From assembly GCA_964627425.1 (NCBI GenBank), contig CAZVIY010000007.1:63510-127509 (forward strand): a stretch of 64,000 nt of DNA, written 5' to 3'. This DNA is from an uncultured Gemmatimonadota bacterium (GTDB lineage: Bacteria; Gemmatimonadota; Gemmatimonadetes; Palauibacterales; Palauibacteraceae). A program made the translations under genes and the position numbers. This document shows, piece after piece, positions 11,683 through 64,000 of the stretch (position 1 is the first letter of the stretch; every line of letters starts with the position of its first letter). Below the pieces are notes generated by a model. The model searched no databases and was not told the DNA's origin. It saw only the letters and a list, made by a program, of their open reading frames with translations.

Positions 11683-12131
11683 CGGCGGTCTACCTGTTCG
11701 CCGTCCTCCTGGCGGCCCTGGTGGCCGTGGGCCTGGTGGCGAGCCCGCTGCTGGAGCAGGAGCCCGTGGACGCCGAGGACGCACCGCCCGCCGAGCGCCG
11801 CGACGCCGAGATCGAGACCCTCCGAGAGGTGGAGTTCGAGTACCGGACCGGGAAGCTGTCGGAGGAGGACTACCGGGAGCTCCGGGCCCGTCACGCCGAA
11901 GCGGCGGTCCGGGCCCGCCGGGAGGCCGCCGAAGAAGAGGAGGGCGTTCCCGCCGAGGAGCCGGACCCCGGGGAGGACGGCCCCCGGGAGGTCGGATCGG
12001 ACGCCCCGGCGGCGGAGGCCGAGGAGGGCCCGGCCCTCCCCCGATGTCCCGAGTGCGGGGCCCGCGCCCGCCGCACCGGGGCCCGGTTCTGCAGCGAATG
12101 CGGGAGCGAGCTGGAGACACCCGGTGGGTGA
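11679..12131 (+). CDS. Membrane-anchored protein with C-terminal zinc-ribbon (CPECG...CSECG)
   Basis: An N-terminal TM helix (VTAVYLFAVLLAALVAVGLVASPLL), a charged linker, and C-terminal CxxC-x10-CxxC. GTGA overlap with the upstream gene and an overlap with the downstream ltaE start. Confidence 0.5.
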   Translation: MTAVYLFAVLLAALVAVGLVASPLLEQEPVDAEDAPPAERRDAEIETLREVEFEYRTGKLSEEDYRELRARHAEAAVRARREAAEEEEGVPAEEPDPGEDGPREVGSDAPAAEAEEGPALPRCPECGARARRTGARFCSECGSELETPGG

Positions 12132-13251
12132 GGGGAGCCCGGCCGACGGGGAGGCCGCGGGCCCGTCCGGAGGGGCGGACGCGGCGGGAGGCGCCGATCC
12201 CGCCGGCGACGGCGAAGCCCGGTTCGACGTGGACCTCCGGAGCGACACCGTCACCCGGCCCACCCGGGCCATGCGGCGCGCCATGGCGGAGGCCCCGGTG
12301 GGCGACGACGTCCTGGACGGCGACCCCACCACCCGGCGGCTGGAGGAGCGGACGGCGGAGCTCCTGGGGAAGGAGGCCGCCCTCTTCTTCCCCAGCGGGA
12401 CCCAGGCCAACCAGACCGCCCTCCGGGTCCACGCCTCGCCGGGCCGGGAGGTGGTCTGCGAGGCCGACGCCCACGTCTTCCACTACGAGCTGGCCGCGGC
12501 GGCCGAGCTCTCGGGGGTCCAGCTCCGGCCGGTCCCCTCCGAGCGGGGGCTCCCCGGGCCCGGGGCGTGGGAGGGGGCCATCCGGGGCGGCGACCGGTAC
12601 CACCCGCACACCGCCCTCCTGTGGACCGAGAACACCCACAACCTCCACGGGGGGACGGTCTTGCCGCTGGAGGGGCTCCGGGAGGTCCGGGAGCTGGCCG
12701 GGGAGCGGGGCCTGCCCGTGCACCTGGACGGCGCCCGTCTCTGGAACGCCTGCCGGGCGGCGGGTGTGGAGCCGGCGGCCTACGCGTCCACCGCCGACAC
12801 CGTGATGGTCTCGTTCTCCAAGGGCCTGGGCGCGCCGGTGGGCGCGGCGCTGGCGGGGCCGGCGGAGCTCGTGGAGCGGGCCTGGGTGGTGCGGAAGCGG
12901 CTGGGCGGGGGGATGCGCCAGAGCGGCGTCCTGGCGGCGGCGGCGCTGGTGGCCCTGGAGGAGGGCCGGGAGGCCCTGGCCGCCGACCACCGCCGGGCCC
13001 GCCGGCTCGCCGAGCTGTGCCGGGGGATCCCGGGCCTGGACGCCCCGGAGCCCGACACCAACATCGTGATGATCGAGGTGGTGGGCGACCAGGGGGTCGA
13101 CGCGCCCGCCCTCTCCCGGGCCCTGGAGGAGCGGGGTGTGGGCATCCTGGCCACCGGCTCCCGGACCCTCCGCGCCGTGACCCACCGGGACGTGGACGAC
13201 GCCGGCGTGGAGCGGGCCGCGGGCGAGCTGGCCGCCGCGCTGGGGGCTTAG
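12124..13251 (+). CDS. ltaE: Low-specificity L-threonine aldolase (PLP-dependent)
   Basis: FDVDLRSDTVTRPTRAMRRAMAEAPVGDDVLDGDPT...FFPSGTQANQ...VSFSKGLGAPVG...GGGMRQSGVLAAAAL is collinear with E. coli LtaE. Confidence 0.75.
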   Translation: MGEGSPADGEAAGPSGGADAAGGADPAGDGEARFDVDLRSDTVTRPTRAMRRAMAEAPVGDDVLDGDPTTRRLEERTAELLGKEAALFFPSGTQANQTALRVHASPGREVVCEADAHVFHYELAAAAELSGVQLRPVPSERGLPGPGAWEGAIRGGDRYHPHTALLWTENTHNLHGGTVLPLEGLREVRELAGERGLPVHLDGARLWNACRAAGVEPAAYASTADTVMVSFSKGLGAPVGAALAGPAELVERAWVVRKRLGGGMRQSGVLAAAALVALEEGREALAADHRRARRLAELCRGIPGLDAPEPDTNIVMIEVVGDQGVDAPALSRALEERGVGILATGSRTLRAVTHRDVDDAGVERAAGELAAALGA

Positions 13252-54932: not shown

Positions 54933-56465
54933 TCAGGAAGCTCCGGAGGAGTGCGTCCCGGCGCCGTTCGGCCCGGCGCCGTTCGGCCCGGAGACCGGGA
55001 CCCTGACCACGAACCGGGTCCCCTCGCCCCGCTCGCTCTCCGCCGTGATCCGGCCGCCGTGGTCCCGGACCACCTGCCGGGCGATGGCCAGGCCCACCCC
55101 CGTTCCGAGGGCGTCCCGGGCCTCCCCGCTCCGGACGTAGGGCTCGAAGATCCTCTCCAGCTCCTCCGGAGCGATGCCGGGGCCGGTGTCCCGGACCTCG
55201 AGGCTCACCCACCGGGCGTCGCCGGAGCGCGGGGGCTCGTCCGCCGGGCCGTCTTCCCCGGCCGCCGCGATCCGGAGCTCCACCGCGTCGCCGCGGTCGA
55301 TGTACTTGAACGCGTTGTCCAGCAGGTTGCCCAGTACCAGGTCCCGCAGCCGCTCCTCGTCGGCCCGAATCACGCGGGGGGCGTCGGCGTCGACCTCCAC
55401 CCGGTACTCCGCCTCCTTCTGGCGGGCCGCCGCGGAGAACGCCTGACGGAGAGCCGTGGCCAGGTCCTCCACGTGGGTCTCACGGAAATCCAGGTCCAGG
55501 GCCCCGGCCTCCGCACGGGTCAGGCGGATGAGCTGGTCGATCTGCCCGGTCAGCTCTTCCATCTGCTCCCGGACCTCGTCCAGCACCTCACGCTGCTCCT
55601 CGTTCACCGGGCCGAACTCCCCCTCCCGGAGCATCTCGCCGTAGCCCAGGGCCACCGACACGGGCGTCTTGAGCTTGTGGCTGGCGGCGGAGAGGAACTC
55701 CGCCTTGAGCCGGTTCAGCTCCTCCAGCTTCTCGGTCATGAACCGGAAGGCCCGGTTGAGGGAGCCGAGCTCGTCGTCGCGGTCGTACTCGAGCTCTTCC
55801 GGCGCCTGGAGCCCGCCCTCGGCCGCCCGGGCCATGGCCGACTGAAGGAGGCTCACGGGGCGGGTCACCGTCCGTGCGATCCCCCCGCCGACCAGGAAGG
55901 CGAGCAGCAGCGCCCCGAGCAGGGCGATGGTGGTGGTGCCGGTGGCCGAGGAGACGAGCCGCTCGGCCCGTCGCGCGGACTCGGCGCTCCGGGTCCGTAC
56001 CACGGCGTCGAGCTCCGCGAGGACGGGGTCGGCGCGGAACAGGAGGCTGGAGAGCCCCCGGAAGGCGACGGTGGCCTCGGACAGGTTCCCTTCGGCCACG
56101 AGCGTACCCACCTGGTAGGCGGCCGTCCGGACCGCCCGGGCCAGGTCCAGGGACGGCCGGGCCGCCTCCCCGTAGCCGGTCTGGCGGAGGTGGCCCGCCG
56201 CCACGGCGGTGGCCGACAGGGCCCGCGCGAGCCTGTCCCTGGCGGCCGGCGATCCGGTGGCCACGTAGCCGCGGGCGGCCAGGTCCAGATCGCCCAGCGC
56301 GGAGCGCATCTCCTCCACCGCCGAGCCGGCCGCGGCGTGGCGCTCGCGGATCGTCACCGCCACGTCCCGTGCGCCGTCGAGCTGGGAGAGGGCGTATACG
56401 GCGGGCACCGCCATGATGAGGGTGGCCGAGAGGACGGCCAGGACGAGGCGGGTCCGGACGGTCAC
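54933..56465 (-). CDS. Sensor histidine kinase (TM-HAMP-HisKA-HATPase_c)
   Basis: H-box EFLSAASHKLKTPVS, N-box LLDNAFKY, and G-boxes DTGPGI and GTGVGLAIA. The C-terminal tail carries a duplicated GPNGA. Confidence 0.85.
   Translation of the reverse strand: MTVRTRLVLAVLSATLIMAVPAVYALSQLDGARDVAVTIRERHAAAGSAVEEMRSALGDLDLAARGYVATGSPAARDRLARALSATAVAAGHLRQTGYGEAARPSLDLARAVRTAAYQVGTLVAEGNLSEATVAFRGLSSLLFRADPVLAELDAVVRTRSAESARRAERLVSSATGTTTIALLGALLLAFLVGGGIARTVTRPVSLLQSAMARAAEGGLQAPEELEYDRDDELGSLNRAFRFMTEKLEELNRLKAEFLSAASHKLKTPVSVALGYGEMLREGEFGPVNEEQREVLDEVREQMEELTGQIDQLIRLTRAEAGALDLDFRETHVEDLATALRQAFSAAARQKEAEYRVEVDADAPRVIRADEERLRDLVLGNLLDNAFKYIDRGDAVELRIAAAGEDGPADEPPRSGDARWVSLEVRDTGPGIAPEELERIFEPYVRSGEARDALGTGVGLAIARQVVRDHGGRITAESERGEGTRFVVRVPVSGPNGAGPNGAGTHSSGAS
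54961..54990. repeat. Perfect 15-bp tandem duplication (cggcgccgttcggcc x2) in the 3' end of the histidine kinase gene
   Basis: Read directly: cccggcgccgttcggcccggcgccgttcggcccgg. It encodes GPNGAGPNGAG on the minus strand. Confidence 0.6.
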
Positions 56466-56478
56466 CGGCGTCTCCCCC

Positions 56479-57141
56479 TCAGTGCCTACCGCCGGAGCCC
56501 TCGAGGAGCTCCCGCAGCCGCTCCACCTCCCTGGCGAGGGAATCGACCCGCGTCCGGAGCGCCCGATTCCGGACCCCCAGCGTCCGGTGCCGGTCCCCCA
56601 GGGCCCGGCGTCTCAGGGTCGGCGGTTCCCCCGCCTCGGCGAGGGAGGACTCCTCGACGCCGCAGTTCTCGGCATTGCCGCTGGGGCGGAGGGCGGCTTC
56701 CGCCTCCCCGGCCCCGGTCGGCGACAGGTCGAGGGCCGACAGGTAGAGGGCCCGGGCCAGCCGATCGGCCCAGACGGACCGGCCGGGGGTGCGGATCAGA
56801 CGGGCCGCGGCGGCGGCCGCCCGGGCGGGATCGCCCTCCTCCTGCACGCCCGTCGGAACCGCTGACTCCGCCACGTAGAGGAGGAGGGCCCGCTCGCCCA
56901 GCGGCGAGACGCCGCACCGGCGCCACACGCTCAGGAGATGCTCGCGGGCGTCGTCGTCGCTCTGGCCGCTGGCGAGCTCTTCCACCGCCCGGTCGAAGCT
57001 CTCGGCGGGCGACAGTCCGCCCGTCGCGGCGCCACCGCCGCAGGCGGCGAGCAGCACGCATCCCCCGAGGAGGCCCGCCACCGTGAGCCCACGCTCCCAC
57101 CCTCGAAGCCGTCCTGCTGGTCGATCCCTCTCGGCGGTCAC
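56479..57141 (-). CDS. Hypothetical lipoprotein with C-terminal coiled coil, encoded between the sensor kinase and the response regulator
   Basis: LLGGCVLLAACGG lipobox, and a C-terminal coiled coil LRTRVDSLAREVERLRELLEG. Its start overlaps the stop of the response regulator gene. Confidence 0.45.
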   Translation of the reverse strand: MTAERDRPAGRLRGWERGLTVAGLLGGCVLLAACGGGAATGGLSPAESFDRAVEELASGQSDDDAREHLLSVWRRCGVSPLGERALLLYVAESAVPTGVQEEGDPARAAAAAARLIRTPGRSVWADRLARALYLSALDLSPTGAGEAEAALRPSGNAENCGVEESSLAEAGEPPTLRRRALGDRHRTLGVRNRALRTRVDSLAREVERLRELLEGSGGRH

Positions 57142-58217
57142 GCTGCCTGTCCTTCCGTACCCGGAAAGCCACCGTCGGCCACGGCGTCGAAGAACGCCTC
57201 GGCGACCCTCGGCTGAAATTTCGTACCCACCAGCCTCCGGATCTCCTCCAGGGCTTCCGGCACCGGCGCCGCCTCCTTGTAGACCCGCTCGTGGGTCAGG
57301 GAGTCGAAGACGTCGGCGACGGACACGATCCTGGCGCTCAGCGGGATGGCCTCGCCTTCCAGGCCGTCGGGATACCCGCTGCCGTCCCAGTTCTCGTGGT
57401 GTGATCGGGCGATCTCCGCCGCGGTCTCGAGCACCGGGAACCGGCTGTCCGAGAGTATCTGCTCGCCGATCAGGGTGTGCCTCTTCATGGCCTGGTACTC
57501 CTCGTCGGTCAGGGGACCTGGCTTCAGGAGGATCTGGTCGGAGATCCCGATCTTTCCGACGTCGTGGAGCGGAGCGGCGCGCCTCAGCGTGTCGAGCTCG
57601 TCGTCTTCCAGGCCCAGGCGACGGCCGATCCTGTACGCCATCTCGCCCACCCGCCGGGTGTGAGCTCCGGTGTCGTCGTCACGGTACTCGGCGGCCAACG
57701 CAAGGCGCTCCAGGAGCTCGATCCTGGCCGCCTCCAGCTCGGCGGTCCGCTCCTGGACCTTCTCCTCCAGGCGCTCGTTGGTCCGCTCGAGGACCCGCTG
57801 GAGGCGCCGGGTCTCGAGCTGGTTCCGGACCCGGTAGCGGAGCTCGGAGGGGCTGACGGGCTTGGCGACGAAATCGTTCGCTCCCCGGTCGAAGACGTCC
57901 TTCTTCGTCTCACGGCTCGTATCGGAGGTGAGGACGATCACGGGCAGATAGGACCGATCCGACCGGGCCGCGCTCAGGCGATCCAACACCTGGAAGCCGC
58001 TCATCCCCGGCATCTGGAGGTCGAGCACCACGAGGTCCGGCACGTCCGCGGTGATGGCCTCCGTGGCCCGTGCCGGATCGCTCCAGCACTCCACGTTCTC
58101 GTAGCCCGCGTTCTCGAGGAGCCGCCGGACCATCCGCAACAGGGCCTCGTCGTCGTCCACGAGGACGATCCTCGACTCGACCACCGGCACGGCGGTCCCG
58201 GAGCTCCGTTCCGTCAT
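57138..58217 (-). CDS. Response regulator with HD-GYP phosphodiesterase output domain (RpfG-like)
   Basis: REC domain (VLVDDDEALLRMVRRLL...DLVVLDLQMPGMSG, with D and K positions), then an HD-GYP domain (HTRRVGEMAYRIGRRL...PLHDVGKIGI...HHENWDGSGYPDGL). Confidence 0.85.
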   Translation of the reverse strand: MTERSSGTAVPVVESRIVLVDDDEALLRMVRRLLENAGYENVECWSDPARATEAITADVPDLVVLDLQMPGMSGFQVLDRLSAARSDRSYLPVIVLTSDTSRETKKDVFDRGANDFVAKPVSPSELRYRVRNQLETRRLQRVLERTNERLEEKVQERTAELEAARIELLERLALAAEYRDDDTGAHTRRVGEMAYRIGRRLGLEDDELDTLRRAAPLHDVGKIGISDQILLKPGPLTDEEYQAMKRHTLIGEQILSDSRFPVLETAAEIARSHHENWDGSGYPDGLEGEAIPLSARIVSVADVFDSLTHERVYKEAAPVPEALEEIRRLVGTKFQPRVAEAFFDAVADGGFPGTEGQAA

Positions 58218-58465: not shown

Positions 58466-58888
58466 CTAGCCCCCAAGGATCCTGAGTACCTCGGCGGGCG
58501 GTTTGATCGGAATGCCGGAGAACTCGCCCAGGTCGAGCAGATGGGCGTCTCCGGAAGCCACCCAATCGGCTTCGGCCGAAACGGCACACTCCAGGACTCT
58601 GTTGTCGTCAGGATCTTCCTCGATGACCTTCAGATGGGTCGAAGGACGCACGATACGGGCGTGATGAACCACATCCCCGACGAAGGCGGTGACATCCGAC
58701 TCCTCCAGTTGGAGTTTCGGATAGCGAAGGACTCGCCCCAGTTCATTGATCAGCTCGGGAGATGTCGCGAGCTGTACTTGCCCGGTTCGACACAGGTGGT
58801 AGAGACGATGCGGCACCCCACGCCAGGCGACTGCTGATACGAGTACGTTCGTGTCCAGTACAGCTACTGGTCGTTCTCGCGGGCCCAC
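58466..58888 (-). CDS. PIN domain toxin (VapC-like, TIGR00305-type)
   Basis: VAVLDTNVLVSAVAWRG... with the conserved acidic residues. The GTG start overlaps the 3' end of the upstream antitoxin by 25 nt. Confidence 0.7.
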   Translation of the reverse strand: MGPRERPVAVLDTNVLVSAVAWRGVPHRLYHLCRTGQVQLATSPELINELGRVLRYPKLQLEESDVTAFVGDVVHHARIVRPSTHLKVIEEDPDDNRVLECAVSAEADWVASGDAHLLDLGEFSGIPIKPPAEVLRILGG

Positions 58889-59139
58889 CGGATGGCCTCC
58901 TCCACATCCTCCTGGGTAAGGCCCTGTTCCTCGAAACGCTCAGCAATCCGGGCAGCCAGCCTTTCGAAGTCCTCCACCGGTCCCGCGGCCTTGCGGAGCT
59001 CAGCCTTTCCCTCCCGAACAGTCCAGAACACGACGTCCCCTTCCCCCAGGTCGAGCTGGTCACGCACCGACTTGGGAATCGTGGTTTGCCCCTTGGAACT
59101 GACCTTCGTGGTAGGTGGGCGCACAGAATCAGGAGACAT
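58864..59139 (-). CDS. AbrB/MazE/SpoVT-family antitoxin
   Basis: SSKGQTTIPKSVRDQLDLGEGDVVFW is the swapped-hairpin AbrB-type DNA-binding domain. A 91-aa protein with an acidic C-terminus. Confidence 0.7.
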   Translation of the reverse strand: MSPDSVRPPTTKVSSKGQTTIPKSVRDQLDLGEGDVVFWTVREGKAELRKAAGPVEDFERLAARIAERFEEQGLTQEDVEEAIRWARENDQ

Positions 59140-59183
59140 GCTTCCCCTCCGGCCGATAGGAACCTCTTTACTTTCTTACTTTT

Positions 59184-59191
59184 TTACGTAA
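59184..59191. promoter_or_regulatory. Palindrome TTACGTAA in the AT-rich region about 45 nt upstream of the AbrB-type antitoxin start; candidate autoregulatory operator or promoter element
   Basis: Read at 59171-59200: ctttcttacttttttacgtaacgggatacg. Confidence 0.3.
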
Positions 59192-59414
59192 CGGGATACG
59201 AATGGTTCCCATCAGGGGCGCGATTGGCGGACCGGCTGAACAGCTCATTGGCGGGCAGGGACGCCCTCTGGTTTCCGCAACGCCGTTCCGGCGACCGTGA
59301 GCGTGGAGTGGAAAGCTCGCGTCCCTCTAGGAGTTGGGTGACAGCGACGCTCAGTACAGCTTGCACGACTCAAAGGTAGATGTTGGAGGCGACCACGACC
59401 TGAATCTTCACGAT

Positions 59415-60263
59415 TCAGACTGAAACTCGGTCCTTTTCCTGCTCTCCGAGCCTTTGACCCAATAGCTCGAGAAACCGAGCCACCGGGAAGTCGAAGCTCT
59501 CCGCGAATTCACGGGCGGCCCCTGCGGTGAGGCGGGACGCTCCAGTCTCCAGTCTCCGGACCTGCCGTTCGCCCAGCCCGGAAATGTCCTTCTGGCGAAG
59601 TCCCCTCTCCTCCCGCATGGCCCGGAGGACGGCACCCGTATCCTCCTCGGCGATGCGCTCGATCTCCACGTCGGCCAGGTAGGTCGGATCCAACGCCTGC
59701 AACAGCGACGAGACTCCGAGATCCACGTCCATCTCGGGCCAGCGCAGGTAAGAGCCATCGGGGTCGATCTCGAATTCCTGGAGCGCTTCCCTTCCGCGGT
59801 CAGCGAGGGAGGGCACCTGGTCTCTCGGAAACGACCGCACGGTCAAATCTCCGAGTACGAGCACGAGCTCGTCACCGACGGCGTACGCGTCAACGATCCC
59901 CTCTTCGGGTAGCTGCCTCTTCTGGGCAACCAGGAGGCGTCTGAGGGCCCCGGCGTCGCGGGTCACATGCAGCCTCTGATCCGGCTTGTGGAGCCGCAGG
60001 AGGGTGGGAAGCCGCATGAGGGCGGGAACGGGCACGTCGGTGAAGACCAGATAGAACGTCTCGGTGTCGACCCATTCCGGGACCGGGCCTTCTGGATGCC
60101 GGATGATCTCCGACGCCGTGGCCACAACGACGCCTCCAGCCTCCACATCCTCGCTCAGGCCCCGGTCGAGGAGCGGACGGAGCTGCTCCGGTAGATCCGC
60201 CAGCTCGCGAGCGATCGCGCTCGTCCAGAGGCGCGGGCCCGGGGAAGGGTTCCTCCTACTCAT
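59415..60263 (-). CDS. DUF2442 domain(s) fused to a C-terminal XRE-type HTH
   Basis: A central segment matches DUF2442 (IVDAYAVGDELVLVLGDLTVRSFPRDQVPSL...LQEFEIDPDGSYLRWPEMDVDLGVSSLL), with a possible degenerate second copy N-terminal to it. The C-terminus is an HTH (LRAMREERGLRQKDISGLGERQVRRLETGASRLTAGAAREFAESF). Confidence 0.55.
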   Translation of the reverse strand: MSRRNPSPGPRLWTSAIARELADLPEQLRPLLDRGLSEDVEAGGVVVATASEIIRHPEGPVPEWVDTETFYLVFTDVPVPALMRLPTLLRLHKPDQRLHVTRDAGALRRLLVAQKRQLPEEGIVDAYAVGDELVLVLGDLTVRSFPRDQVPSLADRGREALQEFEIDPDGSYLRWPEMDVDLGVSSLLQALDPTYLADVEIERIAEEDTGAVLRAMREERGLRQKDISGLGERQVRRLETGASRLTAGAAREFAESFDFPVARFLELLGQRLGEQEKDRVSV

Positions 60264-60363
60264 CGGGAGCTACGTTTCCAGATCGCACCCGGGGACATCG
60301 AAGCACACGACCCTGGGCACGGTACCCTAGCCGGACTGCCGCCGTTCACGAGATGACGCGAGC

Positions 60364-60591
60364 TCATCCGGTCGGTGGATGGGGATCGTGCCCATAGGAG
60401 CGCCGATCACGAATTCGGCCGTCCCGACCGTGGACCAGGAGCTCCGCGCCCTGGTTCTTCGCGATGCGGCGTGCGGCCCGGATCGCCTCCTCCTGGGTGG
60501 CGAAGCGCCGCGTGTCGCGGCGGCTCCCCTCCTTCCGCACCGCCCACTCTCCCTTGCGAGGGACGACGTGCTGATTCGGGCTTCGAGCCAT
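60364..60591 (-). CDS. DUF2188 domain protein
   Basis: QHVVPRKGEWAVRKEGSRRDTRRFATQEEAIRAARRIAKNQGAELLVHGRDGRIRDRRSYGHDPHPP is collinear with DUF2188 family members. Confidence 0.65.
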   Translation of the reverse strand: MARSPNQHVVPRKGEWAVRKEGSRRDTRRFATQEEAIRAARRIAKNQGAELLVHGRDGRIRDRRSYGHDPHPPTG

Positions 60592-60612
60592 CAGGGTTCC
60601 CCAGCTTTCTCG

Positions 60613-60656
60613 AGCGACCGGACACCTTCGTTATTTAAATTACAATACATGTCCGG
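60613..60656. other. Perfect 9-bp inverted repeat GACCGGACA...TGTCCGGTC flanking a 25-nt AT-rich spacer (stem-loop; a possible terminator for the DUF2188 gene, or an operator)
   Basis: Read at 60611-60660: agcgaccggacaccttcgttatttaaattacaatacatgtccggtcaagg. Confidence 0.5.
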
Positions 60657-60887
60657 TCAAGGGTCCGTGGCCAGGGGCGCGTAATGGGCGACGGGATCAG
60701 ATGAGCCACTGGGGTTGACTTCCGGTTGATTGCTTGGCCCAGAGTGCCGGCAGACCCTCAGTCTTGCATCAGCTGATGCCTTAACATTGGCGAACCGGGT
60801 CGACAAGACCGGGTAGAAATGGATCGACTACAGCGGGCGCGCTTTCTTCACGCTGAGGGGTAGGACGCTCAGGAGGCGGAGGGTGAG

Positions 60888-61103
60888 ATGGATCCTCTAT
60901 CTGAGCTCAAAGAGCTCACTGCGAGCGAGCGCTTACAACTCGTGCAGGATCTCTGGGACAGCATCGCCGCTGAACCCAACTCGGTCTCGGTTACAGAGGC
61001 CCAGAAGGAAGAGCTCGACCGACGTTTTGATGCCCACCCAACCGACGACCGGGATGACATCTCCTGGTCAGAAGTGAGGGAACGCCTCCAGGATGAATCG
61101 TGA
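60888..61103 (+). CDS. Putative addiction module antitoxin (TIGR02574-like)
   Basis: MDPLSELKELTASERLQLVQDLWDSIAAEP...TEAQKEELDRRFDAHPTDDRDDISWSEVRERL. A GGAGG RBS lies upstream. Confidence 0.6.
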   Translation: MDPLSELKELTASERLQLVQDLWDSIAAEPNSVSVTEAQKEELDRRFDAHPTDDRDDISWSEVRERLQDES

Positions 61104-61216
61104 ATCGGCCGGTCCGCTCCGGCCGGAAGCCGAACATGAGATCCGGGAAGCATTCCGGCACGGCGCTACAATCTGATTGCTGTCGATGGGGTAGCCCAAG
61201 AACGGATAGTTTACGA

Positions 61217-61528
61217 ATGGTGATCGTCCGATCAGTGCACGACGTTCCGATCCGACTTACCCGGGAGCGTTGGGAACACATCGCGGGTAGACATCCGGAA
61301 ATGAGAGGCCAACGCAATCGGGTTCTTGAAACTGTCGCAGAGCCTGACCTCATCCAGCAGGGAGACGGTGGGGAGCTTCTTGCCGTGCGGCGATTTCCGG
61401 ACACACCTTTGACGGAGAAGTACCTCGTCGTTCCCTACCGCAAAACAGAGCCGGGCGACGGCTTCATCATCACCGCGTACCTGACGAACCAACCCTCCAC
61501 TCGGAGACCGGTGCTATGGAAGCGTTGA
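61217..61528 (+). CDS. DUF4258-like protein (putative toxin partner of DUF2283); possible alternative GTG start at 61100 overlapping the upstream antitoxin stop
   Basis: MVIVRSVHDVPIRLTRERWEHIAGRHPEM...AEPDLIQQGDGGELLAVRRF...KYLVVPYRKTEPGDGFIITAYLTNQP. Its 3' end overlaps the start of the DUF2283 gene by 13 nt. The 61100 start would add 39 low-complexity residues. Confidence 0.5.
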   Translation: MVIVRSVHDVPIRLTRERWEHIAGRHPEMRGQRNRVLETVAEPDLIQQGDGGELLAVRRFPDTPLTEKYLVVPYRKTEPGDGFIITAYLTNQPSTRRPVLWKR

Positions 61529-61737
61529 AGATCCTCGACAAACCGCGATCCATTACCTGGGAGTACGATGAGGAAGGAGACGTACTCTATCTTTCCGTTG
61601 GTGAGCCTAAACCAGCGGTAAGCGTCGATTTAGGAGAAGGTATCATCGCTCGATACGATCAGGAGTCCCGCGAGGTCGTCGGCATTACTGTCCTCGGGCT
61701 ACGCGAGCGACTTGTGAACGAGCTGGAGGAGGCATAG
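61516..61737 (+). CDS. DUF2283 domain protein
   Basis: ITWEYDEEGDVLYLSVGEPKPAVSVDLGEGIIARYDQESREVVGITVLGL has the canonical DUF2283 pattern. Confidence 0.7.
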   Translation: MEALKILDKPRSITWEYDEEGDVLYLSVGEPKPAVSVDLGEGIIARYDQESREVVGITVLGLRERLVNELEEA

Positions 61738-61876
61738 CTCGGTTTTCCCGACCACTGTCGACCAACACCAGTTGGACGACATTGTGAATAGGCACCGGAA
61801 ATGAGGAATCGGTACCAGGTTGAAGCTGCGATGATAGCTAGGCGCATCCTCCAGTGAACTACAACTGGAGGGCCGC

Positions 61877-62209
61877 ATGGATTACCAGAAAGTCATCGCC
61901 GTGCTACTGAATCAGGAGCAGTTTGGTGAGGCGGAGCTCTCAGCAGCTCTCAACGTACCGCTAACTCGCATGCTCCAGCCGTTCATGAGCGAAGGCTCTG
62001 ACGGCTATGCCGAACCGCCGGACGGCTGGAGGGACGCCCTAGCAAACTTGGTGGAGGAAAAGGCGACAGCGTATCAGGTAGACAAGTTTCTAAAATCACT
62101 GGCCTCCGAAGCTGAGTCATCTCCCAGAGTTTCAGACATCCAGCCTGAAAAAAAGGACCGGGCAGAGCACCTCTATACGCTCGCTCGGATCATCAGAGAC
62201 GCCGACTAG
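61877..62209 (+). CDS. Hypothetical protein (110 aa), low-GC
   Basis: An ORF in the low-GC island with no recognisable domain. It is followed by a GCCGAC-TAGA-GTCGGC hairpin that includes its stop codon. Confidence 0.35.
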   Translation: MDYQKVIAVLLNQEQFGEAELSAALNVPLTRMLQPFMSEGSDGYAEPPDGWRDALANLVEEKATAYQVDKFLKSLASEAESSPRVSDIQPEKKDRAEHLYTLARIIRDAD

Positions 62210-62834
62210 AGTCGGCAGCCCCATTCCACCTCATTCAGCCGTCATCAAGGCTTTCCGCAGCCAGGAACCTGGGCGTCCCTCACCGCGAACTTCAGCGAGT
62301 TGGACCGGATGTTCCTAGCGACCACGGCACGTAGCTAAATTCCGGTGACTGCGTACCAATCTCGTAGAGATTCGGTACTGCATAGAAATGCAACTGCCCC
62401 ACTCAACTGACACAGTCTAAGTTGAACCGTCACAACCTATCTCGGAGCAGGGCTCCTCCTGAGCCTCATGTAGGAGCCTCCTGCGTGGCAGGCATGGCAT
62501 CGACCGATCCCGTCCTACACCTCTCATTCACTGGCTTGGGGGGGTTATTAGATAGGACGGCTCAAGTACCATCCCCCACCTCGCGATGCGCGTTGATCAC
62601 AGTCGCGCCGTCGCAAAACGCCGCCTCCTCAACAGTCGCGTACAGCGGAAGTCAGGCACTTCGCCTTCAAAGTACAATATCTGAGAATAAGTAGAGTCAT
62701 GATTCGATCTACAGTATCGCATTCCACTGCTTGGCAAAGGCTAACGCGAGGACCCGCTGTCTTCCCACATCCGCATCAGCTAGTCTTGTATTTCTTCTCT
62801 GAAGGTACCGTCCATCAAAGGGGGGCTACTGGTA

Positions 62835-64000
62835 ATGAGCGAGCCTGAATCCTTCGACGGAGGTAATCCAACCGCCCTTCGTGTTGACGCGCCTCTTGCA
62901 CATCCGTCTCAGGATCGCCTTGGGAGGAGCCCCTTCGCACGAGCACTTGCGGATGCAATAGCGGACATTCCGGCTGAAGAGAGCTTCGTTTTTGGCCTGC
63001 AGGGGCCATGGGGTGCTGGGAAGACGTCAGTAATCAACTTCGTGCTTGCATACCTACGGGAATCAGAGGGAGAGGCGCCTCCTATCCTTCCGGTTCAATT
63101 CAACCCGTGGTGGTTTTCTGGAACTGAGGACCTACTACGCCAGTTCTTCGCTCAGATTCTTGCAGCTCTCAACGAACAGTCGAAGGGTGACAAGTATGAA
63201 AGCTTGGTGGAGCATCTTCGGCTCTTCTCAGCACTGCTTTCTCCAGCCGAATTCATACCGGCGGTGTCTGTTCCCGCACAGCTACTCAAAGGAGCTGTAG
63301 ACTGGAGTTCAGAGAAATTTGGGGTAGCAGCAGAGCGCGAGCGAGATATCCATAAAATTCGAGACAACATCGATCAGATATTATTATCAGAAAGCATCCG
63401 GCTCTTAATCGTAATTGATGATTTGGATCGCTGTTCCGGTAAGGAAATCCGCCAGATGATGCAACTTGTCAAAGCGATCGCCGACTTCCCCAATACGATT
63501 TATTTGCTGGCCTATGAACACTCCGCCGTTTCCTCAGCGTTAAGTGTGCCTTCGCAGAACCGCGGGGAAGAGTTCTTGGCGAAGATCGTCCAGGCTCCCT
63601 TTGACCTTCCTCCATGCAATAAAATCTCACTGCGCAGGCTCCTCGTTGAGGAGCTCAACGCGCTGATTGCCGATACACCTGACGAGCTTTTCGATAACCG
63701 TCAATGGCAAAACATCTTCTATGATGGCTTGGAAGCACTTTTAACCACCCCCCGTGATCTCACACGATTTCTAAATGCAGTCCGTGCAACGTATCCGGCC
63801 GTTCGCGATGAAGTCGAAGCCGCTGATTTCTTGGGCATTCAAGCACTTCGAGTGTTTGCACCAGATTTTCACCGGGAAGTTGCCAATTCCAAGACGCTAC
63901 TCACAGGCACGGTTAGAGCTGGGCAGGAAGCAAGGGATCGTCTTCGCGAAGGCTATGATGAGCTATCGAGGTTACTGCCTGAGGAGAGTAAGCAGCCAAT
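62835..64000 (+). CDS. KAP-family P-loop NTPase, N-terminal about 388 aa; continues beyond window end
   Basis: Hand-translated from ATG 62835: MSEPESFDGGNPTALRVDAPLAHPSQDRLGRSPFARALADAIADIPAEESFVFGLQGPWGAGKTSVINFVLAYL... LLIVIDDLDRC ... with Walker A GPWGAGKTS and a KAP-type Walker B. An in-frame stop lies upstream at 62781. GC content is about 50%. Confidence 0.75.
   Translation, partial: MSEPESFDGGNPTALRVDAPLAHPSQDRLGRSPFARALADAIADIPAEESFVFGLQGPWGAGKTSVINFVLAYLRESEGEAPPILPVQFNPWWFSGTEDLLRQFFAQILAALNEQSKGDKYESLVEHLRLFSALLSPAEFIPAVSVPAQLLKGAVDWSSEKFGVAAERERDIHKIRDNIDQILLSESIRLLIVIDDLDRCSGKEIRQMMQLVKAIADFPNTIYLLAYEHSAVSSALSVPSQNRGEEFLAKIVQAPFDLPPCNKISLRRLLVEELNALIADTPDELFDNRQWQNIFYDGLEALLTTPRDLTRFLNAVRATYPAVRDEVEAADFLGIQALRVFAPDFHREVANSKTLLTGTVRAGQEARDRLREGYDELSRLLPEESKQP

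What the first reader, a model, noticed from the sequence alone, without database searches (positions are those of the whole stretch)
62835..64000. KAP-family P-loop NTPase at the island edge (cut off by the window)
KAP NTPases (Walker A GPWGAGKTS, Walker B LLIVIDDLDRC) are recurrent components of phage-defence islands and are often embedded among TA modules. This gene is the largest in the low-GC island. It has the island's lowest GC, at about 50%. It follows a 625-bp stretch with no ORF. Its C-terminal effector or partner genes lie beyond 64 kb.
Basis: partly seen in the sequence, partly recalled or inferred. Interest (0 to 1): 0.55.

Follow-up and report, generated by a model that had tools for sequence, protein, structure and literature searches.

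The report
PifA-like defence ATPase carried by a casposon
The cut-off gene is a real KAP-family ATPase, a distant full-length relative of the F-plasmid phage-exclusion protein PifA. It is the first cargo gene inside a self-replicating Cas1/PolB transposon (a casposon) whose relatives carry other anti-phage systems in the same slot.

Summary
Window 62835-64000 (+) encodes the first 388 residues of a KAP P-loop NTPase (Pfam PF07693, E=6e-57) with intact Walker A and B motifs.

A public contig that matches the window's last 3066 bases without a mismatch extends the sequence by about 11 kb. The protein is 729 aa. It matches the PADLOC PifA profile end to end (E=4e-104) and aligns with F-plasmid PifA over its whole length (22% identity, E=1e-29).

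Its stop overlaps by 8 nt the start of a 301-aa EVE-HNH nuclease of VcaM4I type, a modification-dependent restriction enzyme. This family occurs alone elsewhere and was never found next to KAP relatives.

Further on lie a PolB with a CDTDS motif, a small HNH gene, helix-turn-helix genes and a casposase-like Cas1. These are the core genes of a casposon.

Sibling strains lack the whole segment. In relatives the same slot holds type I restriction-modification (RM), Dsr1, Pycsar or AbiE genes.

Verdict: a new member of known kinds, PifA-family defence cargo on a bacterial casposon. The right end of the element was not available, and no function has been tested.

The parts
62835..64000 (+). First 388 codons of a 729-aa PifA-family KAP P-loop NTPase. 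The gene continues to window-equivalent 65024 (L086 1901-4090).
   Evidence: Translation. Pfam KAP_NTPase E=6.4e-57. PADLOC PifA E=1.1e-74 for the fragment and 3.6e-104 for the full length, covering profile positions 4-675 of 720. The extension contig is identical over the 3066-bp overlap.
63003..63029 (+). Walker A / P-loop, GPWGAGKTS (residues 57-65)
   Evidence: The W59, G60, G62, K63 columns are at least 90% conserved among 22 family members.
63402..63434 (+). Walker B, LLIVIDDLDRC (residues 190-200)
   Evidence: D195, D196, D198 and R199 are invariant in alignments A1 and A6.
62817..62825 (+). Ribosome-binding-like AAAGGGGGG, ending 9 nt before the ATG
   Evidence: Read directly from the sequence. 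Inference only.
62542..62556 (+). Probable left terminal repeat motif of the casposon, GGGTTATTAGATAGG, read inward. The KAP start codon lies 293 nt inside it.
   Evidence: 14 of 15 bases match L096 15612-15626, which is a casposon terminus. These are the only two places with the pattern among 177 loci. GGGTTAnTAGA is shared in register with both arms of the 26-bp perfect inverted repeat of the L096 element. It also matches single sites within 45 nt of the Cas1-side ends of L095 and L178, in the inverted orientation.
62557..62834 (+). Subterminal non-coding leader between the terminal motif and the KAP start
   Evidence: No ORF with a family match and no Rfam match. Sigma-70-like sites are not above chance.
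61769..61782 (.). Breakpoint where sibling-strain contigs stop matching the window
   Evidence: L084 and L085 are 99.8% identical to the window up to 61781. They then carry a different sequence that the two share with each other.
61877..62209 (+). 110-aa ORF of unknown function. It lies in the strain-specific segment but outside the casposon terminal motif.
   Evidence: No Pfam match. The exact protein is found on one assembled contig only.

Best explanation
The ORF is the N-terminal half of a 729-aa, soluble, PifA-family KAP P-loop NTPase.

Shown:
- It has intact Walker A and B motifs, and a KAP domain followed by a roughly 400-residue, mostly helical C-terminal region.
- It aligns over its full length with F-plasmid PifA.
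- It is the first gene after a terminal repeat motif that related casposons share.
- Its stop overlaps the start of an EVE-HNH nuclease gene.
- The same strain-specific segment holds PolB, a small HNH gene, helix-turn-helix genes and a casposase-type Cas1.
- Related casposons carry known defence genes in the same slot.

Inferred:
- The gene is anti-phage or anti-mobile-element cargo that the casposon brought into a toxin-antitoxin (TA)-rich, low-GC island of a 73%-GC bacterial chromosome.
- By analogy with PifA, with the KAP defence proteins tested in Enterococcus, and with its STAND/RdrA-like fold, the C-terminal region probably senses a phage product. NTP binding or hydrolysis would then switch or oligomerise the protein, and infection would be blocked or the cell shut down.
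- The neighbouring EVE-HNH enzyme most likely acts on its own, cutting DNA that carries modified cytosines. The pair would then cover different phages.
For: - KAP identity.
- Homology to F PifA: BLASTP E=1e-29, residues 17-668 against 13-693.
- Relatives are mostly 700-790 aa measured stop to stop and are scattered across bacteria and archaea, as expected for horizontally moved defence genes.
- The AlphaFold model has mean pLDDT 87. Its best solved-structure matches are RADAR RdrA rings, followed by ORC/Cdc6, Apaf-1 and Avs4.
- Extension: 0 mismatches over 3066 bp.
- Casposon core: Cas1 Pfam E=1.4e-37, and the best PDB match by sequence is 6opm, E=1.9e-24 against 1e-16 for CRISPR Cas1. Catalytic-type E172, H255, D267 and E270 are invariant. 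PolB has Exo I, motif A DFLSMYP and motif C CDTDS. The 134-aa gene carries an HNH motif.
- The same gene order is found in L096, L095 and L178.
- PolB is present in 27 of 28 related loci that have enough flank.
- Relatives have terminal inverted repeats and 14-15-bp target duplications.
- Terminal motif at 62542.
- Sibling strains lack the segment.
- Defence genes sit in the same slot in 4 of 6 relatives, and are common in the cargo overall.
- KAP proteins with uncharacterised C-terminal regions protect against phage and need the Walker B motif (PMC13552941).
- An archaeal casposon carrying a KAP ATPase is already on record (PMC4046053).
Against: - The right end of this element is not in any sequence I could reach, so its inverted repeat and target duplication are unverified. 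Cas1 runs off the contig.
- A profile built from eight more distant relatives' termini did not detect the left end. The motif match rests on three closer relatives.
- Sibling strains already diverge 760 bp to the left of the motif, which a simple insertion does not explain.
- None of 83 related Cas1 loci carries a KAP gene, so the cargo role rests on position, not recurrence.
- Identity to PifA is only 22%, PifA's own mechanism is unsettled, and no phage or host is known for this organism.
Confidence: 0.7

Rival explanations
1. KAP and the EVE-HNH protein form one two-gene system. The NTPase would sense infection and license or recruit the nuclease, as RdrA works with RdrB in RADAR.
For: The two genes overlap by 8 nt (ATGGCTAG), which suggests co-transcription and translational coupling. 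Both are unique to this element among the loci sampled. The KAP model's best fold match is RdrA, an ATPase that works with a separate effector.
Against: No EVE-HNH homologue occurs in 80 loci of KAP relatives, by single-sequence or profile search. Genes downstream of those relatives are unrelated to one another: GHKL ATPase, helicase, methylase, Fic, RhuM. Four contexts of EVE-HNH homologues contain no KAP. The EVE-HNH architecture is that of VcaM4I, which is active on its own (PMC7897488, title and abstract).
Confidence: 0.15
2. The KAP gene lies outside the mobile element. It would be an ordinary defence-island gene next to a casposon, and the GGGTTATTAGATAGG match would be coincidental or an internal repeat.
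For: The right terminus was not seen. The terminus profile from distant relatives found nothing. The sibling-strain breakpoint is at 61769-61782, not at 62542. GC differs between KAP (about 52%) and the core (about 63%).
Against: The motif occurs only here and at a casposon terminus among 177 loci. Its variants sit at the very ends of L095 and L178 in the expected orientation. Relatives have 0.6-4.6 kb of variable genes between that terminus and PolB. The KAP gene is in any case part of the strain-specific segment.
Confidence: 0.1
3. The KAP NTPase serves the casposon itself, for example as an ATP-dependent regulator of integration or replication.
For: It lies directly beside the terminus. One archaeal casposon (MetMah-C1) also encodes a KAP ATPase (PMC4046053). 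The fold resembles ORC/Cdc6-type initiators.
Against: None of 83 related Cas1 loci encodes a KAP protein, whereas PolB, the small HNH gene and the 167-aa protein recur. The protein belongs to a family found mostly outside casposons.
Confidence: 0.05

Closest known systems
PifA of the E. coli F plasmid (phage T7 exclusion)
   Same: Same length class (729 against 741 aa). The two align end to end (E=1e-29) with a KAP domain plus a long helical C-terminal region. Both are carried by a mobile element, and this protein matches the PADLOC PifA profile.
   Different: Identity is only 22%. No pifC-like repressor gene lies upstream. The carrier is a casposon in a high-GC environmental bacterium rather than a conjugative plasmid. 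The trigger and phenotype are unknown.
KAP NTPase defence proteins tested in Enterococcus (EF_KAP and three metagenomic proteins; PMC13552941)
   Same: KAP domain followed by a C-terminal region of unknown function. Defence needs the Walker B motif and the C-terminal region.
   Different: EF_KAP is predicted to have transmembrane helices. This protein has none above threshold: the highest 19-residue hydropathy window scores 1.39. Sequence relationship was not tested.
QatA of the Qat system, and PADLOC candidate PDC-S20
   Same: KAP-type NTPase domain.
   Different: Matches are weak and partial. QatA in NCBIfam scores 60 bits against a cutoff of 600. No QatB, QatC or QatD genes are present.
RdrA of the RADAR system
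   Same: Best fold match of the full-length model, aligned over the whole length.
   Different: TM-score is only about 0.3 and there is no sequence-level match. No RdrB deaminase gene is present.
Casposons of families 2 and 3 (Krupovic et al. 2014), including MetMah-C1, which carries a KAP ATPase
   Same: Cas1 with a C-terminal helix-turn-helix, PolB of the CDTDS group, a small HNH gene, helix-turn-helix genes, and terminal inverted repeats with 14-15-bp duplications in relatives.
   Different: This lineage is bacterial, abundant in soil metagenomes, and rich in recognised anti-phage systems. Family assignment by phylogeny was not done.
Pipolins (PolB-encoding defence islands)
   Same: A self-replicating element whose variable part holds exchangeable defence systems (PMC11551731).
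   Different: Integration here is by Cas1 rather than a tyrosine recombinase, and the PolB belongs to a different group. That study reported a lower defence-gene share in its 48 reference casposons than in pipolins.
VcaM4I (EVE-HNH modification-dependent restriction enzyme), for the neighbouring gene
   Same: Full-length fold match, E=1.4e-9, with an N-terminal EVE/PUA-like domain and a C-terminal HNH.
   Different: About 15% identity. Specificity is unknown.

Membership tests
KAP family P-loop NTPase (PF07693) | Profile match above Pfam's curated cutoff, over the whole domain | tested here: met
   193.5 bits against a cutoff of 20. Residues 31-321 match profile positions 1-291 of 293. The full-length protein gives the same result.
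KAP family P-loop NTPase (PF07693) | Walker A and Walker B motifs intact | tested here: met
   GPWGAGKT at residue 57 and LLIVIDDLDR at residue 190. These columns are conserved in the family.
KAP family P-loop NTPase (PF07693) | Transmembrane helices inserted between Walker A and B. From my own knowledge of Aravind et al. 2004, many KAP proteins have these but not all. | tested here: not met
   The highest Kyte-Doolittle 19-residue window scores 1.39, at residues 130-148. Residues 141-164 are the low-confidence part of the model. The feature is optional, so this does not exclude membership.
PifA family (PADLOC PDLC02361) | Full-length profile match that is far better than to other KAP defence families | tested here: met
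   E=3.6e-104, residues 14-675 against profile positions 4-675 of 720. The next families score E=1e-12.
PifA family (PADLOC PDLC02361) | Pairwise homology to the characterised F-plasmid PifA, including the C-terminal region | tested here: met
   E=1e-29, 22% identity over 703 aligned columns.
PifA family (PADLOC PDLC02361) | Exclusion of phage triggered by specific phage proteins | not testable with these tools
   Needs cloning and phage challenge.
PifA family (PADLOC PDLC02361) | pifC-type repressor gene directly upstream, as in F | tested here: not met
   No ORF with a family match lies between the terminal motif (62542) and the start codon. In F, pifC directly precedes pifA. PADLOC lists only a PifA model, so I treat this as a feature of F rather than of the family.
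Casposon | Cas1 homologue of casposase type, not part of a CRISPR-Cas locus | tested here: met
   Pfam Cas_Cas1 E=1.4e-37. The best PDB match is 6opm, which from my own knowledge is the M. mazei casposase. There is a C-terminal helix-turn-helix extension. The 14-kb contig has no repeat array and no Cas2 match. The gene is cut off at the contig end.
Casposon | Family B DNA polymerase linked to Cas1 | tested here: met
   A 997-aa PolB lies 2.6 kb from Cas1. It has motif A and motif C CDTDS, the group that includes the A. boonei casposon PolB (PMC7544198). Linkage holds in 27 of 28 related loci.
Casposon | Small HNH endonuclease and helix-turn-helix genes in the core (families 2 and 3) | tested here: met
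   The 134-aa protein has CLLCG...EEHHV...N...CRNCH...H and is conserved in relatives. The matching gene in L096 and L178 hits HTH_17.
Casposon | Terminal inverted repeats | tested here: inconclusive
   A left terminal motif shared with three related elements is present. The right end is not available. Relatives have clear inverted repeats of 15-137 nt.
Casposon | Target-site duplication of 14-15 bp | not testable with these tools
   Needs the right flank. Duplications are seen in relatives L108, L113, L119, L131, L146, L173 and L174.
EVE-HNH modification-dependent restriction enzyme (neighbouring gene) | N-terminal EVE/PUA-like reader fold plus C-terminal HNH motif | tested here: met
   Model mean pLDDT is 89. 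The top match is VcaM4I over the full length, followed by EVE, YTH, ASCH and McrB-N domains. Pfam HNH scores 29.9 bits against a cutoff of 21.4. The HNH cysteines and histidines are invariant.
EVE-HNH modification-dependent restriction enzyme (neighbouring gene) | Cleavage that depends on modified bases | not testable with these tools
   Needs enzyme assays.
QatABCD system | QatA equivalog score, and QatB/C/D neighbours | tested here: not met
   60.3 bits against a cutoff of 600. The neighbours are unrelated.

The most novel reading that the evidence does not exclude
This lineage of bacterial casposons may act as a self-replicating, Cas1-integrated vehicle for exchangeable anti-phage cassettes, with slots on both sides of a fixed PolB/HNH/Cas1 core. 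It has at least 577 Cas1 relatives in soil-type metagenomes. The window would then show one such cassette, PifA-like KAP plus EVE-HNH, caught as a recent strain-specific insertion. A further possibility within this reading is that the overlapping KAP and EVE-HNH genes work as a coupled sensor-nuclease pair not yet described.
Probability: 0.4. Interest if true: 0.65.

Novelty: new member of a known kind. Interest (0 to 1): 0.45.

Why it matters
The gene itself would be labelled PifA by standard defence finders, so the original finding is sound but ordinary. The added value is the carrier.

Casposons are mainly known from archaea and a handful of bacteria, and they are studied as the ancestors of CRISPR adaptation. 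Here an apparently intact bacterial casposon is polymorphic between near-identical strains and delivers two defence genes. Its relatives carry Hachiman, Pycsar, Dsr1, restriction-modification (RM), AbiE and ApeA-type genes.

That would put casposons next to pipolins, satellites and integrative elements as movers of immune genes. It would also give a natural setting for studying PifA-type proteins, whose mechanism is still unknown.

Tried and rejected
- Searching GTDB species representatives for the source genome gave only relatives of at most 47% identity.
- Looking up a host protein to reach the 138-kb NCBI contig failed because that contig is not indexed. The right end of the element therefore stayed out of reach.
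- An inverted-repeat search within the 14-kb contig found no terminal pair.
- A profile of the termini of eight more distant relatives found nothing significant in window plus extension; the best hit had E=4.7. The motif at 62542 was found only by comparison with the closer relatives.
- No tRNA gene is available as an integration site.
- No Rfam family matches 57-64 kb.
- Promoter and terminator scans were not above chance.
- Pipolin was considered because of the weak DNA_pol_B_2 hit. It was rejected once Cas1, the CDTDS motif and the inverted repeats of relatives were seen.
- I considered that the 301-aa HNH might be the casposon core nuclease. I rejected this because the conserved core HNH is the 134-aa gene, and the 301-aa family occurs outside casposons.
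- Aravind et al. 2004 is not held in the paper library.
- The host taxon was not determined.

Full report
**1. The observation**

Window 62835-64000 (+) is an open frame of 388 codons that runs off the window. It begins at the first start codon after an in-frame stop at 62781-62783 and is preceded by AAAGGGGGG. Pfam gives KAP_NTPase at E=6.4e-57 over 291 of 293 profile positions. Other P-loop families (AAA_16, NACHT-like, STAND) stay at or below their cutoffs. GC falls from about 0.73 to 0.51 at the end of the window. The 625-bp stretch upstream has only short ORFs; the one scanned has no family match, and the stretch has no Rfam match.

**2. Extending the sequence**

An exact-protein look-up of the small gene at 61877-62209 returned a 13,991-bp assembled contig, Logan SRR9010616_253018 (L081/L086). 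Its first 3066 bases equal window 60935-64000 without a mismatch. Window coordinate = L086 coordinate + 60934. The same proteins are also recorded on a 138,459-bp NCBI contig that I could not fetch. Everything said below about DNA beyond 64000 rests on L086.

**3. What the protein is**

- The complete protein is 729 aa.
- It matches the PADLOC PifA profile from position 4 to 675 of 720 (E=3.6e-104). The next families, PDC-S20 and QatA, reach only about 1e-12. NCBIfam QatA scores 60 bits against a cutoff of 600.
- A direct comparison with PifA of the F plasmid (L177, the gene after pifC) aligns residues 17-668 with 13-693 at 22% identity, E=1e-29.
- The closest proteins in public data are only 47% identical.
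- Relatives are mostly 700-790 aa measured stop to stop. They occur in many bacterial phyla and in archaea, and on over a thousand plasmid records.
- No segment reaches the usual hydropathy threshold for a membrane helix. The insert between the Walker motifs, where many KAP proteins carry such helices, is the low-confidence part of the model.
- The AlphaFold model has mean pLDDT 87 and pTM 0.80. It shows a P-loop domain followed by a long, mostly helical region. Its best solved-structure matches are RADAR RdrA rings, then ORC/Cdc6, Apaf-1 and Avs4. All have low TM-scores, as expected for multi-domain proteins.

**4. The gene behind it**

The KAP stop codon overlaps the start of a 301-aa gene by 8 nt (ATGGCTAG).

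- Its C-terminus is an HNH domain. Pfam scores 29.9 bits against a cutoff of 21.4, and the only PDB match by sequence is the HNH of McrA.
- Its model (pLDDT 89) matches the EVE-HNH enzyme VcaM4I over the full length (E=1.4e-9). After that it matches EVE, YTH, ASCH and McrB-N reader domains.
- About 65 homologues cover at least 90% of its length, so the whole architecture is conserved.

Is it a KAP partner? The evidence says no.

- None of 80 loci encoding KAP relatives has a homologue, by single-sequence or profile search.
- The genes that follow those relatives differ from one another: GHKL ATPase, large helicase, N6 methylase, Fic, RhuM.
- Four contexts of EVE-HNH homologues contain no KAP gene. 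They look like ordinary defence or integrative regions.

I conclude that it is an autonomous type IV restriction-like enzyme that happens to share an operon with KAP.

**5. The element**

After two unknown genes in a 45-50% GC stretch, L086 carries the following:

- a 997-aa PolB on the minus strand;
- two conserved small genes (134 aa and 167 aa) and an 87-aa gene, all on the minus strand;
- divergently, a 418-aa gene and a Cas1 gene that runs off the contig.

Evidence on each component:

- **Cas1.** Pfam gives E=1.4e-37. Its best PDB match by sequence is 6opm (E=1.9e-24), ahead of CRISPR Cas1 proteins at 1e-16. From my own knowledge 6opm is the Methanosarcina mazei casposase. Homologues are 510-530 aa with a C-terminal zinc-ribbon/helix-turn-helix extension, and the acidic and histidine residues expected of the active site are invariant.
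- **PolB.** It has an Exo I motif, motif A DFLSMYP and motif C AFCDTDS. This places it in the 'PolB_CDTDS' group, which includes the Aciduliprofundum casposon polymerase (PMC7544198).
- **Small HNH.** The 134-aa protein carries a compact HNH motif.

Cas1, PolB, a small HNH and helix-turn-helix genes are the core described for casposon families 2 and 3 (PMC4046053). There is no repeat array and no Cas2 match on the contig.

**6. Relatives confirm a mobile family**

- Three closer relatives (L096, L095, L178; Cas1 47-59% identical) have the same gene order.
- A metagenome scan found at least 577 Cas1 relatives.
- Of 28 loci with at least 6 kb on the PolB side, 27 keep the PolB.
- Many loci show inverted terminal repeats 10-17 kb apart. 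Seven show 14-15-bp direct duplications of the flank.

**7. Where this element starts**

The string GGGTTATTAGATAGG at window 62542-62556 matches 14 of 15 bases at L096 15612-15626, which is a casposon terminus. The pattern occurs nowhere else in 177 loci. Its first eleven bases, GGGTTAnTAGA, are shared in register with both arms of the 26-bp perfect inverted repeat of the L096 element. They are also shared with single sites lying within 45 nt of the Cas1-side ends of L095 and L178, in the opposite orientation, as a terminal inverted repeat requires.

Independently, contigs from sibling strains (99.8% identical over 3 kb) stop matching at 61769-61782 and continue with other DNA. The whole region is therefore strain-specific.

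**8. What the slot holds in relatives**

In ten relatives bounded by inverted repeats, the 65 non-core ORFs include:

- Hachiman HamA and HamB;
- Pycsar cyclases;
- Dsr1/SIR2;
- type I and IIG restriction-modification (RM) genes;
- SAVED-TIR;
- viperin-like proteins;
- a Schlafen helicase;
- ApeA;
- AbiEii.

The slot between the terminus and PolB is where KAP sits here. I tested ten ORFs from that slot in six elements. Four of the elements have defence matches:

- type I S and M subunits in L119;
- Dsr1 in L146;
- PDC-S58/ApeA plus AbiEii in L173;
- a Pycsar cyclase in L113.

No relative carries KAP or EVE-HNH.

**9. How it most likely works**

Shown: gene content, order, homology, fold, strain polymorphism, and the nature of the slot.

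Inferred:

- A casposon integrated through its Cas1 and replicated by its PolB delivered a two-gene defence cassette.
- KAP acts as a single-protein sensor-switch. The C-terminal region would recognise a phage product, as PifA responds to T7 gene 1.2 and gene 10 products (Schmitt et al. 1991, cited in PMC13552941).
- The P-loop would drive a conformational or oligomeric change.
- The outcome would be a block to infection or shutdown of the cell.

Experimental work on other KAP proteins shows that defence needs the Walker B motif and the C-terminal region, and that not all act by abortive infection. EVE-HNH would cut DNA with modified cytosines.

**10. Comparison and novelty**

The protein is a new, distant member of the PifA family. 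The element is a member of the casposon superfamily. A KAP ATPase in an archaeal casposon and Sir2-like genes in three others were noted in 2014. A 2024 survey of 48 reference casposons found a lower share of defence genes in them than in pipolins. What looks under-described is how large this bacterial lineage is and how rich in recognised defence systems. I did not place it in the published phylogenies.

**11. Open points**

- The right end is missing.
- The 760 bp between the sibling breakpoint and the terminal motif are unexplained.
- In L096 and L095, two termini face each other across exactly 14 nt.
- The host organism is unidentified.

Noticed in passing
window 58466-61737: A run of small toxin-antitoxin-type genes at 62-64% GC, between the 73%-GC host DNA and the strain-specific segment. 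It holds PIN_3 (58466-58888, -) with a MazE/AbrB-type antitoxin (58864-59139, -), DUF2442 plus HTH (59415-60263, -), DUF2188 (60364-60591, -), Unstab_antitox (60888-61103, +), and a 103-aa gene with a weak RelE-like nuclease match followed by DUF2283 (61516-61737, +). Sibling strains share this region.
   Followed up: partly
window 61769-62540, compared with L084 3016-3915 and L085: This 760-bp segment, with a 110-aa ORF, is absent from sibling strains yet lies outside the casposon terminal motif. The junctions carry look-alike short strings: CACCAGTTGGACGACA, CACGGCTTGGACGCCA and CACTGGCTTGGGG. A second insertion, a recombination tract and a cassette exchange are all possible.
   Followed up: partly
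L096 15586-15626; L095 right end (about 12097-12135): Two casposon termini face each other across exactly 14 nt, the size of the target duplication. In L096 the second element carries a 92%-identical inverted partial copy of Cas1 (882 nt). This suggests repeated insertion at one target, or a junction product.
   Followed up: partly
L097-L176 (JGI metagenome contigs), L094-L096, L178: A large family of bacterial Cas1-PolB elements, mostly on JGI metagenome contigs, with at least 577 Cas1 relatives. They have inverted repeats of 15-137 nt, several starting GGGGATAG/GGGATAGG next to a TTGAC-like target. Their cargo includes Hachiman, Pycsar, Dsr1, restriction-modification, ApeA, AbiE, SAVED-TIR and viperin-like genes.
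   Followed up: partly
L094 (ENA contig ctg257973l): A Cas1 of this clade (51% identical) sits next to a TIR-TPR protein and several IS (rve) transposase genes, with no PolB within the 10 kb upstream. This is probably a decayed or rearranged element.
   Followed up: no
L086 5076-6505 (window-equivalent 66010-67439): Two minus-strand genes (169/214 aa and 251 aa) lie in the lowest-GC stretch, 45-50%. They have no match in Pfam or PADLOC and no homologue in related casposons. The 251-aa protein has a hydrophobic stretch (residues 57-107). They may be further unrecognised cargo.
   Followed up: no
window 57138-58217 (-): The last clearly host-like gene before the GC drop is a response regulator with an HD-GYP-type HD_5 domain. 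It follows a histidine kinase-like ORF at 54933-56465 (-).
   Followed up: no
tool behaviour: The window's own 729-aa KAP protein and its Cas1 neighbour exist in the protein collection or on the NCBI contig. They were not returned when their fragments were used as queries, so a 'best hit 47%' understates what is held.
   Followed up: no
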